47,711 nucleotides of DNA from positions 1 to 47,711 of the IMG/VR virus record IMGVR_UViG_3300036888_000141; one strand, 5' to 3'. The position numbers and the translations under genes are program-made. Positions 193 through 15,881 of the stretch are shown here, piece by piece. The stretch is from a virus. The notes below the pieces were generated by a model. That model saw nothing but the letters and a program-made list of their open reading frames with translations. It was not told where the DNA came from and ran no database searches. Numbering within the stretch: the stretch's first letter is position 1; each line of letters starts with the position of its first letter.

Positions 193-336
193 TCACTCAT
201 TTAAATATTTAGACACGGCTTCACGTAAGATAAATGACCGTGAACGCTGTTTACTTTCTGCAATTTTATCTATTTTTTCTAGTTCTTCTTCTTCTATATC
301 AAAACAAGCTTTAGTTTTCATGATGTTCACGTTCAT
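193..336 (-). CDS. Ribbon-helix-helix (CopG-like) regulator, 47 aa; not in ORF track
   Basis: RBS GAGGTGA 4 nt before ATG; MNVNIMKTKACFDIEEEELEKIDKIAESKQRSRSFILREAVSKYLNE fits the RHH pattern. Confidence 0.8.
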   Translation of the reverse strand: MNVNIMKTKACFDIEEEELEKIDKIAESKQRSRSFILREAVSKYLNE

Positions 337-554
337 AGTATCACCTCTCTACTTTTATTATTTTCTATATATCCTTAGTTTAGTATCTATTTTTATATTA
401 AATATACTTTTCTATTCTATTCTATTAGAAACTATTATATACTATTATAATAATATAGTAACTTGCAAGAGAAAAACTAATTTTTCTTCATTCTCTTGCC
501 ATTCCCTCCAAATGGATGGAATGAACTTCAAAAAGAAAAGGGGATGAGAAGAAA
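337..554. promoter_or_regulatory. Divergent AT-rich promoter region (putative genetic switch)
   Basis: Lies between the minus-strand RHH gene and the plus-strand early operon; very AT-rich with TATA-like tracts. Confidence 0.55.
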
Positions 555-902
555 ATGAATAAAACAGAAATAAGGAAAATAATTCAAAAAGAAGCTAAAG
601 AAGGCGACTACTGGATATTTGAACATGGTGTAAGGATAAGTAAAGCTGTTATAGACTACTTAGCAGATTATAAAGGTGCACATGCCCTGAATGAGATAAT
701 CCATAGAACAGTATTTGTAACATTTCACAGTGGTATGAAAACTGTTAAAGAATTTCACGTTAAATACGCAGTTCAAGAATTGGATCGGGAAGGAATGGAA
801 GCAGAATCTGAAGCTTTAGATGCTATGGAACGTGGAATCGTTGAATGTGAAACCGCCTATGAAGAAGATTCTGACTATTTTTTAAGTGTGAGGGGGTTCT
901 AA
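555..902 (+). CDS. Divergent histone-fold protein with acidic C-terminal tail
   Basis: VRISKAVIDYLADY...HSGMKTVKEFHVKYAVQEL aligns by eye with HMf ERVSDDARITLAKI...HAGRKTIKAEDIELAVRRF. Confidence 0.6.
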   Translation: MNKTEIRKIIQKEAKEGDYWIFEHGVRISKAVIDYLADYKGAHALNEIIHRTVFVTFHSGMKTVKEFHVKYAVQELDREGMEAESEALDAMERGIVECETAYEEDSDYFLSVRGF

Positions 903-1941: not shown

Positions 1942-2094
1942 ATGATGGATCATATTGCAGAAGAAGAAGCCAGTAACATGGCAGCATGCATTCATACCAT
2001 GCATGAATGTGGAATAAACCAGGATGAACCGGATAAAGACTGCGAGCTTATGGAATGCAGATTCTGCTGCAGTTTAAGGAAGGATAAAATATGA
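1942..2094 (+). CDS. Small Cys/His-rich protein, 50 aa; not in ORF track
   Basis: MMDHIAEEEASNMAACIHTMHECG...CELMECRFCC; AGGTGA RBS; stop overlaps the next ATG. Confidence 0.5.
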   Translation: MMDHIAEEEASNMAACIHTMHECGINQDEPDKDCELMECRFCCSLRKDKI

Positions 2095-2807
2095 AAAATG
2101 TTACATATTTTTTTCCTTTGAGTAACGGCCTAGACTTCACTTTAATCGATGCAGAAGATTATGAAAAAATTAAAAACCAGAAATGGCATTTACACCATGA
2201 CCGTAAACGACCTGATAATTTAAAATATGCCCGTAAAAGGTATGGAAATGGGCATATTCTGTTACATAGACTTATTTTAAATCCGCATAAATTGAAACAA
2301 GTCGATCATATTAATGGAAATGGGTTGGATAATCGAAGGGAAAATCTTAGAATTGTTACGGGTAATGAAAATGGTCAAAATAGGCACCATCCACGAAGCA
2401 GTCAATATCCTGGTGTTTGTTTTTGTAAACAAACAGGAAAGTGGATTTCTCAAGTTCAATATGATAATAAGAAATATTGGTTAGGACGTTTTAACACATC
2501 GAAAGAAGCCCAAGCAGAATATCAAAATGCATATAATGCCCTTATAAATGGGGAAAAGGTTATTATTAAAAAACCCAATTTCACAAGTCGATTTAAGGGG
2601 GTTAGTTGGAATAAGAATGTTCAAAAATGGCAGGTTCATATCACGATTAATAAAAAAAGTAAAAATCTGGGTTATTTTAAGTCAGAAGAAGCTGCTTCAT
2701 TAGCTTATATTAAAAAAGCTGTGAAAATTAGTGAAATAATTCAAGAAAGGTATATTGGAATTTTAGATTCTGATGTAATTAAATCTATGAGGAGATGTTT
2801 GAAATGA
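2091..2807 (+). CDS. HNH endonuclease with two AP2-like domains
   Basis: VDHINGNGLDNRRENLR HNH motif; SQYPGVCF..W...LGRF and SRFKGVSW..W...LGYF AP2 repeats. Confidence 0.9.
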   Translation: MKNVTYFFPLSNGLDFTLIDAEDYEKIKNQKWHLHHDRKRPDNLKYARKRYGNGHILLHRLILNPHKLKQVDHINGNGLDNRRENLRIVTGNENGQNRHHPRSSQYPGVCFCKQTGKWISQVQYDNKKYWLGRFNTSKEAQAEYQNAYNALINGEKVIIKKPNFTSRFKGVSWNKNVQKWQVHITINKKSKNLGYFKSEEAASLAYIKKAVKISEIIQERYIGILDSDVIKSMRRCLK

Positions 2808-3322: not shown

Positions 3323-3393
3323 GCCTGTATAACATAGTTTGGTGATGTGCTCGGCCTGTAACCGAGAAACGGGGGTTCGATTCCCTACTGGCT
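3323..3393 (+). tRNA. Degenerate tRNA-Thr(UGU)-like element
   Basis: Acceptor GCCTGTA/TACTGGC (one U-U), D stem ACAT/ATGT with GG loop, anticodon stem CTCGG/CCGAG with loop CC-TGT-AA, TTCGATT T-loop, U73; T-stem 3' strand is 2 nt short and position 33 is C. Confidence 0.55.
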
Positions 3394-7781: not shown

Positions 7782-8240
7782 ATGATAAGCTTATCAAAAT
7801 TAAAGGGGGACATTACACCCCTTGGACATGGTGGAATGCAAACAGTTGGAAACAAACCTAAACATCACTTTAAATATAACCATGAATGGTTAAAAAAAGT
7901 GTTAAATAAGGAATGCCCCGATTGTGAAGAACAGATGACTAAAAAGGGCATTATAAGAAGCTGTACTAATTGCACATTGAAAATATATGGAAGCCCCATG
8001 CTGGTAGCTTATGATAAAATAACCATAATAAATCCTTATTACCTCGTAACTAAAGACCACTGCCCAGATTGTAATGGAACAGAATTTGAAGAAATATATA
8101 AACATGGCAACACTGTTTGTAAAAGCTGTGGATTGGTACTCGCAGGACCTGCTGACAATGATATTATATATCCTTGGCATTTGAATTTCTATGACACTGA
8201 ACCCAAAAATCAGAAGAAAGTATTTATACAAAAGAATTGA
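7782..8240 (+). CDS. Double Zn-ribbon protein with a TFIIB-type ribbon
   Basis: CPDCNGTEFEEIYKHGNTVCKSCGLVL matches the TFB ribbon CPxCGS.......GE.VC..CG.V; a second CPDC/CTNC pair precedes it. Confidence 0.7.
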   Translation: MISLSKLKGDITPLGHGGMQTVGNKPKHHFKYNHEWLKKVLNKECPDCEEQMTKKGIIRSCTNCTLKIYGSPMLVAYDKITIINPYYLVTKDHCPDCNGTEFEEIYKHGNTVCKSCGLVLAGPADNDIIYPWHLNFYDTEPKNQKKVFIQKN

Positions 8241-14663: not shown

Positions 14664-15881
14664 TTACTCGTAGTTTAAAGCTAGAGTTACAGGATCATGG
14701 AAAATAATCGAAGGGTTTTCGCTTCCATCTTCTGATGGGCCGTCTTTACTATAAAATTTGACTTCCATGGTTTTTTCAGCTATATCTGCTACATAGGTGT
14801 ACATAGTTCTTTCTGTGAATGGGAAAGATCCTCCAGCTGCTATGGAATCCTTGTAATGGGAATAAACTAAGCTCATGGCTTCGAACATATCTTCATTGGT
14901 GAAAACACCTTCATGTTTTTTAATGTATTCATCTAGGCGATTCCAGCGATTGAATGTGTTGTATCCTTCCTTTGGATCATATTCAGGGAATTTGGAAGGT
15001 TCTGGATACATGTGCATAGAGTGATTGGTTACTATAAATGGTTGCTCAGGGATTCCATCTATAAAGTAGTATAAACCAGATTTCCCATCAATTTCAAAAA
15101 GTGTTACATTACCGTCCTTATCTCCGATAAGGAAATGCATAGCCCTAGATGGGATATAAACTCTTTGTTGCAGGATCTCAAATTTGGCTTCTTCTACAGT
15201 TGCGCACTTATTAAGGATCATGGTTGTAAGTTGTGAAAAAGACATTCCTGTATCTATGGCTCCTCCAAATGGCATTGGAGTTGTTGATCCTTGTAAATCT
15301 ATGAGAATGGTTACAAAAAGTCCTTTTTCATTAATTCCATCCAAGGGAGGGTTAAGTAGATCATGCGATCCAAATTGTACAGTATTATACCCATTTTCGG
15401 GATAAAATTCCACAGATGTTATTCTAGAAAGTGATTTTCTGGATGGTTTACCTTCTATAACCATCAAAGCTGATCCCAATTCAGTAACACTTTCCTCATA
15501 CCAGTCCAAGTTTCGGCAAACACAAGGATGATTATTTTCTGTTAAAGAAGCAGGGAAATAAATAGCAGAACATGCCATATCACCCAAATCGAAAGGTAAA
15601 ATAGTAGTATCATAATTGGTTTCATTTAGATCCAGTTTAAATGCATCAGCCACTCCACGAGCCCTTTCGGCTAGAGCTGGAAAATTTCTTTTCATATAAT
15701 TCTGTCTAGCTTTACCGTAAACAGGAGTTTTGTATTTATCCAATTGTATCTCATACTCTTTAATTCCTACTTCTGCCAAGTCTTTTCCAATATCAAAATC
15801 AGAGCCCTTAACAGCTATTCCACGAACTTCTAAATACTCTTTTTCCCCTCTAGGAATTACAATTTCATTTTTTAAAATCAT
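14664..15881 (-). CDS. Ntn-hydrolase, peptidase C45 / acyltransferase-like (cargo); strand is minus, not plus as in the track
   Basis: Plus strand reads TTTAAAATCAT at 15871-15881, i.e. ATG ATT TTA AAA (MILK) on minus; about 100-aa propeptide then DMA|CSAIYF...RNLDW; GINEKGL. Confidence 0.85.

What the first reader, a model, noticed from the sequence alone, without database searches (positions are those of the whole stretch)
555..902. First early gene is a divergent histone-fold protein with an acidic tail
By-eye alignment to HMfB: alpha1 NKTEIRKIIQKEA; an extended L1 loop; RIS (vs RVS); alpha2; HSGMKTVK (vs HAGRKTIK); EFHVKYAVQEL (vs AEDIELAVRRF). The Arg-Asp salt-bridge pair is replaced (M/H), and about 40 acidic residues follow. 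As the first gene of the lytic direction it may be a histone mimic that heterodimerises with host histones to open or disrupt chromatin (inference).
Basis: partly seen in the sequence, partly recalled or inferred. Interest (0 to 1): 0.72.

Follow-up and report, generated by a model that had tools for sequence, protein, structure and literature searches.

The report
Histone-derived early protein of methanogen provirus
The first gene on the lytic side of a tailed provirus of a methanogen encodes a small acidic protein whose core is a real but very divergent relative of archaeal histones, with a probable hinge in its long helix and an invariant end-peptide; its job in infection is still unknown.

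Summary
The ORF at 555-902 (+) is a real gene of 115 aa. It has a Shine-Dalgarno site and is under purifying selection. It opens the long + strand operon of a Methanobacteriaceae tailed provirus, divergent from an RHH gene.

The histone likeness holds, but only with profiles. Pfam PF00808 alone is sub-threshold (12 bits against a 21.4 cut-off). A four-sequence family profile hits archaeal histone HPhA at E 2.5e-5. hhalign against Methanobacterium-type histones gives 91.5% (score 36; 200 column shuffles reach at most 16). In whole host-type genomes the profile finds only canonical histones. Against AAA lids of the same hosts hhalign gives 0.4%.

The AlphaFold2 model (pLDDT 69) breaks helix alpha2 at a conserved Tyr-x-Gly hinge. 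It folds as a closed helix-strand-helix bundle that matches AAA+ lid domains (Z 5-7.1), roughly half of a histone dimer. Whether it is an open dimer or a closed monomer remains undecided.

The tail is 38 residues with 12 acidic ones, not 40 acidic residues. Its last 25 residues are identical in three viruses whose cores are 32-63% identical.

Heterodimerisation with host histones is untested. The family has four known sequences. It is a new variant of viral histone-fold proteins.

The parts
555..902 (+). Gene for the 115-aa histone-derived early protein (stop codon 900-902)
   Evidence: ORF. The same protein is found on 34 blocks of public assemblies. About 50% of identical codons differ synonymously from homologues, which shows purifying selection.
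555..785 (+). Core domain, residues 1-77: alpha1 (3-14), extended L1 with a conserved aromatic hairpin (15-26), R27-I-S29, alpha2 (30-58), L2 K62-T63-V64, alpha3 (66-77)
   Evidence: hhalign 91.5% to archaeal histones over residues 26-77. HPhA at E 2.5e-5. Secondary structure from AlphaFold2. Invariant columns R27, I28, S29, K30, Y39, G41, T63 and A72.
666..686 (+). Probable hinge in alpha2 (residues 38-44, conserved Tyr39-x-Gly41)
   Evidence: Non-helical in the AlphaFold2 model at pLDDT about 82. It lies at the family's only indel relative to histones. P0003 has Gly-Pro plus a 1-residue deletion here.
786..824 (+). Acidic linker, residues 78-90; P0003 carries about 80 extra residues just upstream of it, after the core
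   Evidence: Alignment A1. Composition.
825..899 (+). Invariant C-terminal peptide, residues 91-115 (7 acidic, aromatic and hydrophobic end)
   Evidence: 25/25 residues are identical in P0001, P0002 and P0003. All 8 nucleotide differences are synonymous. Only 12-21% of codons differ, against about 50% in the core, and the first 33 nt are unchanged in all three. Homology ends exactly at the stop codon. The peptide is absent from P0004.
337..554 (.). AT-rich divergent control region between the RHH gene and this gene, with direct and inverted repeats; the leader can pair 487-507 with 539-559 (SD + ATG)
   Evidence: Sequence, repeats. The regulatory role is inferred.
193..336 (-). Divergent 47-aa ribbon-helix-helix gene (candidate lysogeny repressor)
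   Evidence: PF01402 RHH_1 at E 1.8e-7, above the cut-off. The same arrangement is seen in L011, L012 and L014.

Best explanation
The gene encodes a virus-specific offshoot of archaeal histones, built from two modules.

Module 1 (residues 1-77) is a double helix-strand-helix domain descended from a Methanobacteriaceae-type histone. It keeps the loop residues that contact DNA in histones (R27-I-S29 in L1, K62-T63 in L2) and the His of the tetramer face (H58). It has gained a longer L1 and a Tyr-x-Gly hinge in the middle of alpha2. I think it slightly more likely than not that the hinge lets the chain fold back on itself into a closed monomer equivalent to half a histone dimer, the topology of AAA+ lid domains, rather than form the interleaved dimer.

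Module 2 is an acidic linker plus an invariant 25-residue C-terminal peptide. I read the peptide as a docking motif for a conserved host component.

The gene is the first of the early operon beside the RHH switch, so it is made at the start of lytic growth. The proposed mechanism is inference. The protein is an early host-takeover adaptor. Its histone-like face engages DNA or the ends of host histone assemblies without being able to extend them. Its tail recruits or blocks a host factor, or shields the DNA-binding face.

Shown: gene, homology, modular conservation, position. Inferred: closed fold, timing, all of the function.
For: Homology to histones:
- The family profile hits HPhA at E 2.5e-5, and all 60 listed PDB hits are histones.
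- hhalign gives 91.5%, score 36.2, against shuffles that reach at most 16.1.
- NCBIfam archaea_histone is hit by 2 of 4 members, best E 4.4e-4.
- Scanned against a whole host-type genome, the profile's next four hits after itself are that genome's four histone genes.
- In 300 Methanobacteriaceae genomes, every hit checked by translation was a canonical or variant histone, apart from one repeat-protein false positive; the other hits were small frames matching the same profile span.
- AAA lids of the same hosts score 0.4%.

Hinge and closed fold:
- AlphaFold2 with the 4-sequence alignment shows H30-37, a loop at 38-44 and H45-58, with pLDDT above 80 across residues 30-90.
- Best structural matches are the lids of RuvBL, MCM, ORC/Cdc6, Clp, Rpt and DnaA at Z 5-7.1. 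ESM Atlas rows are Cdc6_lid, TIP49_C and DnaA at TM 0.5-0.67.
- The M. kandleri histone doublet aligns across both of its folds (Z 4.7), as expected for a half-dimer.
- P0003 has Gly-Pro and an indel at the hinge.
- Alva et al. 2007 (PMC1847821) state that lids and histones differ chiefly by this hinge.

Modularity:
- The tail is 25/25 identical with only synonymous changes, while the cores are 32-63% identical.
- The tail is separated from the core by an insert in P0003 and is missing in P0004.
- No viral gene is comparably conserved across the three proviruses.

Position: the order integrase, divergent small genes, this gene, long + operon is seen. A portal gene and other tailed-virus genes lie downstream.
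Against: - The single protein fails every curated family threshold.
- The structural model rests on four sequences, with mean pLDDT 69 and lid matches at Z below 8. The tool's own notes say such Z values can reflect a common helical arrangement. AlphaFold2 in monomer mode may collapse an obligate-dimer helix.
- Canonical Methanobacteriaceae histones also carry a Gly near the middle of alpha2 and stay helical, so the Gly alone proves nothing (sequences).
- The excess synonymous conservation of the tail could reflect a nucleic-acid-level constraint or recent exchange at a mosaic junction, rather than an exceptionally constrained peptide.
- No expression, binding or phenotype data exist. The overall pI of 5.1 is atypical for a DNA-binding protein.
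Confidence: 0.45

Rival explanations
1. One reading: a true open histone fold that forms interleaved dimers, in particular heterodimers with host HMf-type histones (or with the provirus's own canonical histone at 30300-30509). This would poison or cap hypernucleosomes, with the acidic tail repelling DNA.
For: The closest sequence relatives are the host-type histones themselves. Alpha2 from the R-I-S motif to the H-S-G motif is only one residue longer than in histones. H58 aligns with the conserved His of the histone tetramer interface, and P0002 keeps the R-x-T-x-x-x-x-D signature. The same provirus carries a canonical histone of 63 bits to PF00808.
Against: The AlphaFold2 model breaks alpha2 at residues 38-44. 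The middle of alpha2, which is the buried crossing point in histone dimers, is polar or small here (K40, G41, A42, H43, N46) and holds Gly-Pro in P0003. No interaction has been shown.
Confidence: 0.2
2. A Cro-like switch or early-transcription regulator. The histone-like loops bind operator DNA in the divergent 337-554 region, or early promoters, and the tail contacts the transcription machinery.
For: It occupies the 'cro position', the first gene opposite a ribbon-helix-helix repressor candidate. The control region holds direct and inverted repeats. The L1 and L2 residues are invariant. Histone-fold proteins act as transcription factors elsewhere (NF-Y, TAFs; Pfam hits to TAF and CBFD_NFYB_HMF).
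Against: No HTH, RHH or other sequence-specific DNA-reading element is present. Histone loops read the backbone, not bases (established knowledge). The tail is identical while the cores and the neighbouring repressor genes differ between viruses. That fits a host target better than co-evolving operators. In L005 a GIY-YIG-like gene sits between the switch and this gene.
Confidence: 0.2
3. An anti-defence or DNA-mimic protein. As with the acidic first-expressed proteins of some phages (T7 Ocr; established knowledge), the acidic tail would mimic DNA and block a host nuclease or restriction system, with the core serving only as a scaffold.
For: First early gene. The tail has pI 4.05 and the whole protein pI 5.1. 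The family is very small and restricted to a few related viruses, a pattern often seen for counter-defence genes.
Against: The tail carries only 12 acidic residues and is conserved in exact sequence, not just in charge. The conserved histone DNA-contact residues in the core are not explained. No match to any anti-defence family was found, although no dedicated anti-defence library was available.
Confidence: 0.1
4. Not histone-derived. It is either a free-standing remnant of an AAA+ ATPase lid domain or a chance helical resemblance.
For: The best structural matches are all AAA+ lids. One member gives a weak holA hit (E 0.018).
Against: hhalign to classical AAA lids of the same host lineage gives 0.4%, against 91.4% to histones. 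Genome-wide profile scans return histones and no lids. Shuffle controls exclude chance. No P-loop domain is attached, because the ORF starts at 555 with its own ribosome-binding site.
Confidence: 0.05

Closest known systems
Archaeal nucleosomal histones (HMfA/B, HPhA; Pfam PF00808, NCBIfam archaea_histone)
   Same: Significant profile similarity over L1-alpha2-L2-alpha3. The R-[IV]-S and [KR]-T loop motifs, the His before L2, the Ala in alpha3 and the length of alpha2 (plus one residue) are shared. One family member keeps the R-x-T-x-x-x-x-D motif.
   Different: It falls below all curated thresholds. L1 is about 9 residues longer and carries a conserved aromatic hairpin. The R-D pair is lost in 3 of 4 members. 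Alpha2 has a probable hinge. A 38-residue acidic C-terminal extension ends in an invariant peptide. The whole protein is acidic. The gene sits in a viral early operon.
C-domain (lid) of AAA+ ATPases, proposed ancestor of the histone fold (Alva et al. 2007, PMC1847821)
   Same: The predicted topology is a closed four-helix bundle of two helix-strand-helix motifs joined by a hinge. RuvBL, MCM, ORC/Cdc6, Clp and Rpt lids match at Z 5-7.1.
   Different: There is no ATPase core and no detectable sequence similarity to classical AAA lids (0.4%). By sequence it sits with histones.
Histone-fold proteins of Caudoviricetes: 'phage histones' (Schwab et al. 2024, PMC11390915) and the viral HFP clusters, including Hmf-like MFVHFP (PMC13681535)
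   Same: It is a histone-related protein encoded by a tailed prokaryotic virus. Archaeal-like viral histones with Methanobacteriota hosts are already reported. The canonical histone at 30300-30509 of this window belongs to that known kind.
   Different: Those surveys used HMM hits at E below 1e-5, which this protein does not reach. The described phage and VTTHFP types have a truncated alpha3 and a C-terminal tetramerising helix. This protein has a full-length alpha3, an extended L1, a hinge and an acidic docking-type peptide. I did not find this architecture among the clusters described in the section read.
Free-standing lid-like N-terminal domains of the polymerase B subunits (Pol epsilon subunit B, PMC2528186; archaeal PolD small subunit)
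   Same: These are small independent domains with the AAA+ C-domain topology. They appear among the structural matches (2keb at Z 5.1; PolD small-subunit row at TM 0.66). This shows that the closed fold can exist as a stand-alone module.
   Different: There is no sequence relationship. The family profile did not hit the PolD subunit in host-type genomes.

Membership tests
Archaeal histone / CBFD_NFYB_HMF (PF00808) | Scores above the curated family threshold | tested here: not met
   12 bits against a cut-off of 21.4, E 0.27. Other members give only weak TAF and Histone hits. NCBIfam archaea_histone best E is 4.4e-4, for 2 of 4 members.
Archaeal histone / CBFD_NFYB_HMF (PF00808) | Detectable homology to bona fide histones by profile methods | tested here: met
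   hmmsearch against the PDB gives HPhA at E 2.5e-5. hhalign gives 91.5%, E 8.7e-7. Shuffle control gives z of about 14. Host-genome scans return only histones.
Archaeal histone / CBFD_NFYB_HMF (PF00808) | L1 R-x-S and L2 [RK]-T DNA-contact motifs | tested here: met
   R27, S29 and T63 are invariant, and position 62 is K or R in all four members. They are aligned to R19/S21 and K53/T54-type positions by HMMER.
Archaeal histone / CBFD_NFYB_HMF (PF00808) | Intramolecular Arg-Asp pair (R-x-T-x-x-x-x-D) | tested here: not met
   M61 and H68 in this protein. The pair is kept only in P0002.
Archaeal histone / CBFD_NFYB_HMF (PF00808) | One continuous long alpha2 helix (about 28-30 residues) | tested here: inconclusive
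   The total length fits (30-58), but AlphaFold2 places a loop at 38-44. Mean pLDDT is 69 from a 4-sequence alignment. Gly-Pro in P0003 supports a break.
Archaeal histone / CBFD_NFYB_HMF (PF00808) | Obligate interleaved (handshake) dimer | not testable with these tools
   No result usable for or against (see Tried and rejected). It needs SEC-MALS, NMR or a crystal structure.
Archaeal histone / CBFD_NFYB_HMF (PF00808) | Binds or wraps DNA | not testable with these tools
   It needs EMSA or MNase assays.
AAA+ ATPase C-domain (lid) | Closed four-helix bundle of two helix-strand-helix motifs with a hinge | tested here: inconclusive
   The model matches many lids at Z 5-7.1 and TM 0.5-0.67. These scores lie in the range the tool calls common for helical models.
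AAA+ ATPase C-domain (lid) | Follows a P-loop ATPase core in the same chain | tested here: not met
   It is a free-standing 115-aa ORF with its own ribosome-binding site. No ATPase domain lies upstream.
AAA+ ATPase C-domain (lid) | Sequence similarity to lid families | tested here: not met
   hhalign against 16 Cdc48/PAN lids of related hosts gives 0.4%, E 0.15. No lid family appears in the Pfam scans. Only the classical AAA clade was tested.
Cro/CI-type switch regulators | First gene opposite the repressor across a divergent control region | tested here: met
   Synteny. The RHH neighbour is shown.
Cro/CI-type switch regulators | HTH or RHH sequence-specific DNA-binding fold | tested here: not met
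   No such domain appears in Pfam or in the model.

The most novel reading that the evidence does not exclude
This would be a natural 'un-swapped' histone. The sequence clearly descends from an archaeal histone, but a hinge insertion in alpha2 has returned it to the closed monomeric helix-strand-helix bundle. [quoted passage not shown] The virus would use this half-dimer, with its intact four-helix-bundle face and an acidic tail, as the first early protein to cap or dismantle host hypernucleosomes, or to keep histones off its own DNA.
Probability: 0.15. Interest if true: 0.85.

Novelty: new variant of a known kind. Interest (0 to 1): 0.55.

Why it matters
Histones encoded by tailed viruses of archaea have only just been catalogued, and only those similar enough to pass standard HMM thresholds. 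This family shows that much more divergent histone derivatives sit in viral early operons, where they could act on host chromatin at the start of infection. No mechanism for how archaeal viruses deal with histone-packaged hosts turned up in the papers read here.

If the predicted hinge is real, the protein is also a rare natural test case for the proposed domain-swap link between AAA+ lids and histones. The invariant 25-residue end-peptide is a ready-made bait for finding the host target.

Tried and rejected
- Homodimer prediction of the core (2 copies, alignment A2): verdict 'no answer' (score 0.00). This is not evidence either way.
- Single-sequence AlphaFold2: pLDDT 41, unusable.
- Searches for more relatives all failed:
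  - blastn of 8 kb against the phage collection found nothing.
  - Viral-contig scans by peptide pattern and by the conserved 29-nt block found nothing.
  - The metagenome scan found only the same virus (L010).
  - The genome-contig scan found only the P0002 locus.
  - The 32-nt block with up to 3 mismatches in 200 Methanobacteriaceae genomes found only G001.
  - A profile search of 5.8 billion proteins found no new member.
- PHROGs gave nothing meaningful.
- ESM Atlas by features, and by its own low-confidence model, was uninformative. BFVD gave only non-significant AAA and histone rows.
- RNA element as an explanation for the conserved 3' block: RNAalifold gave -11 kcal/mol with no compensatory pair, and Rfam found nothing there. 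Rejected as unsupported.
- -1 frameshift at the in-frame T-TTT-TTA heptamer (873-879): the -1 frame stops after 7 codons, and the next gene is in the +1 frame (sequence). Rejected.
- Tail as a copy of a host motif: the peptide finds only itself in a host-type genome. By eye it is not a PIP box (no Gln, acidic residue at the hydrophobic position) and not an HbYX end. The host ribosomal stalk protein's C-terminus shares only the general acidic-then-hydrophobic pattern. All rejected as unsupported.
- By-eye likeness of the Tyr-x-Gly-Ala hinge to the G-[YF]-x-G-A-D hinge of classical AAA lids: hhalign did not support it.

Full report
**The gene**

Window 555-902 (+) is an ATG-initiated ORF of 115 codons. 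A GGGGATGA Shine-Dalgarno-like site lies 8-15 nt upstream. The identical protein occurs on contigs from 34 blocks of public assemblies, including a 325-kb host contig. Against its three homologues, about half of the codons that encode identical residues differ synonymously. The frame is therefore under purifying selection and the gene is real.

**Setting**

The window is an IMG/VR provirus record. It carries a portal gene and other tailed-virus genes on the + strand. On the long host contig the order is as follows:
- host genes;
- tyrosine integrase;
- a few small genes;
- a 47-aa ribbon-helix-helix gene on the minus strand;
- a 218-bp AT-rich spacer;
- this gene;
- an unbroken run of + strand genes.

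Two other, mosaic proviruses carrying homologues have the same layout. In one of them a GIY-YIG-like gene is inserted just upstream. 'First gene of the lytic direction' is thus a fair reading of the map, though timing has not been measured. The host lineage is Methanobacteriaceae. This follows from the record title of the P0002 locus and from the nearest relatives of the provirus's own canonical histone.

**Is it histone-like beyond chance?**

Alone, the protein only grazes the histone families. PF00808 gives 12 bits against a 21.4 cut-off, and HPhA gives E 0.21.

The family is tiny. Exhaustive phmmer over 1.8 billion representatives, plus two indexed searches, found three other sequences:
- P0002, 70% identical;
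- P0004, 52% identical, with no tail;
- P0003, whose core is 32% identical and which has an 80-residue insert.

A profile of the four cores (A2) changes the picture.
- Against all PDB sequences the best hit is the archaeal histone HPhA (E 2.5e-5). Every one of the 60 listed hits is an archaeal histone or H4.
- hhalign against 27 Methanobacterium-type histones gives 91.5% probability, E 8.7e-7, over 51 columns from the L1 Arg to the end of alpha3.
- 200 column shuffles of A2 score 9.8 +/- 1.9 (max 16.1) against the real 36.2. The reversed alignment scores 10.9.
- Run in six frames over a whole 2.8-Mb host-type genome, the profile's four best hits after itself are exactly that genome's four histone genes.
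- Over 300 Methanobacteriaceae genomes, every hit I checked by translation was a canonical or variant histone, apart from one repeat-protein false positive. The rest were small frames matching the same profile span.
- Two members hit NCBIfam archaea_histone, best E 4.4e-4.

R27-I-S29 and T63 are invariant in the family and position 62 is always Lys or Arg. These are the histone loop residues that contact DNA. H58 aligns with the conserved His at the tetramer face.

The loss of the Arg-Asp pair (M61, H68) is real in this protein. P0002, however, keeps R-x-T-x-x-x-x-D with canonical spacing.

**The fold**

AlphaFold2 with the four-sequence alignment gives mean pLDDT 69, with values above 80 across residues 30-90. 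The elements are:
- helix 3-14;
- a small hairpin in the long L1;
- strand 27-29;
- helix 30-37;
- a loop at 38-44;
- helix 45-58;
- strand 63-64;
- a long helix from 66.

Alpha2 is thus interrupted at the conserved Tyr39-x-Gly41. This spot also holds the family's one-residue length difference from histones and a Gly-Pro plus a deletion in P0003.

The structural matches are as follows.
- Foldseek puts RuvBL lids first, at E about 0.02.
- The Foldseek-independent search lists AAA+ lids almost exclusively (RuvBL, MCM, ORC/Cdc6, Clp, Rpt, FtsH, DnaA) at Z 5-7.1. The M. kandleri histone doublet aligns across both of its folds at Z 4.7.
- The ESM Atlas returns Cdc6_lid, DnaA, TIP49_C and the PolD small-subunit N-domain at TM 0.5-0.67.

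This is what Alva et al. (PMC1847821) describe. Lids and histones are homologous double helix-strand-helix domains. A lid superimposes on half a histone dimer, and the main difference is a hinge where histones have a continuous alpha2.

To see which side the sequence falls on, I built an alignment of 16 Cdc48/PAN lids from related host genomes. The results were:
- family against lids, 0.4%;
- family against histones, 91.4%;
- histones against lids, 11.7%.

By descent this is a histone relative. By predicted topology it is lid-like. The model is shallow and the Z values are modest. Canonical Methanobacteriaceae histones also carry a mid-alpha2 Gly. I therefore put closed monomer against open dimer at roughly 55:35.

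**The tail**

It is not 'about 40 acidic residues'. It has 38 residues, 12 of them acidic, with pI 4.05. The core has pI 8.0 and the whole protein pI 5.1.

Its notable feature is the last 25 residues (window 825-899).
- They are identical in three viruses whose cores are 32-63% identical.
- All eight nucleotide differences are synonymous.
- Only 12-21% of codons differ, against about 50% in the core.
- The first 33 nt are unchanged in all three.
- Homology between the viruses stops exactly at the stop codon, and the downstream genes are unrelated.
- P0003 separates the peptide from the core by an extra segment, and P0004 lacks it.

The peptide is thus an independent, strongly constrained module. 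The simplest reading is a docking motif for something the three viruses share. No viral gene is comparably conserved among them, so that is probably a host component. This is inference.

The extra synonymous conservation is unexplained. No conserved RNA structure was found. The last 15 nt overlap the next gene's ribosome-binding site, which covers only part of the block.

**Function**

Nothing measured bears on function. I favour an early host-takeover adaptor. A histone-derived face would still address DNA or the ends of host histone assemblies, and the invariant peptide would engage a host factor.

The rivals are:
- a Cro-like regulator of the adjacent switch;
- an acidic anti-defence mimic;
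- a non-histone origin, which the sequence tests make unlikely.

The single complex-prediction job (core homodimer) returned no verdict and is recorded only under attempts.

**Known or new?**

Archaeal-like histones in Caudoviricetes with Methanobacteriota hosts, and several viral histone-fold architectures, were reported in 2024-2025 (PMC11390915, PMC13681535). The canonical 69-aa histone at 30300-30509 of this same provirus belongs to that known kind.

The early gene would not have passed those surveys' thresholds. Its architecture combines an extended L1, a hinge, a full alpha3 and an invariant acidic end-peptide. That combination is not among the clusters described in the section I read. 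I class it as a new variant of a known kind, of moderate interest. Interest would be high if the closed 'un-swapped histone' form or an action on host chromatin were confirmed.

Noticed in passing
window 30300-30509 (-): A canonical 69-aa archaeal histone lies on the minus strand inside the structural-gene region of the provirus. It scores 63 bits to PF00808 and has the full R-K-T...D motif. Its nearest relatives are Methanobacterium histones (up to 81% identity to distinct sequences; a 99% near-duplicate also exists). It fits the recently reported Hmf-like viral histones (PMC13681535). The provirus therefore carries both a canonical and a divergent histone relative.
   Followed up: partly
window 29781-30077 (+): A ParE/RelE-like toxin gene (PF05016 at E 2e-5) lies next to the canonical histone. 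Together they look like an accessory (moron) island that interrupts the late genes.
   Followed up: no
window 825-857 (+): 33 consecutive nucleotides at the start of the conserved tail block show no change, synonymous or otherwise, in three viruses whose upstream codons differ synonymously about half the time. A nucleic-acid-level constraint or recent exchange at a mosaic junction is possible, but neither is shown.
   Followed up: partly
window 465-559 (+): The leader of the gene has a perfect 9-bp stem (465-473 / 491-499). It also has a 21-nt inverted repeat (487-507 / 539-559, 81% complementary) that could pair with the Shine-Dalgarno site and start codon. This is a possible translational control.
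   Followed up: no
window 3323-3393 (+): A tRNA gene (Rfam RF00005, 41 bits) lies within the early region.
   Followed up: no
window 2091-2807 (+) and 7782-8240 (+): The early operon also encodes an HNH endonuclease fused to AP2 DNA-binding domains (PF13392 + PF00847) and a protein with a TFIIB-type zinc ribbon (PF08271).
   Followed up: no
L040, L042, L043, L045 (Methanobacteriaceae genomes G149, G034, G004, G122): The histones that score best against the family profile are a variant subtype. They carry R-I-S-K in L1, H-S-G-R-K-T-V in L2 and an aromatic C-terminal extension of about 10 residues. They are candidates for the histone lineage from which the viral family arose.
   Followed up: no
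window 14664-15881 (-): A minus-strand 405-aa gene inside the provirus matches Ntn-hydrolase families (PF03417 AAT at E 8e-9; weak CBAH).
   Followed up: no
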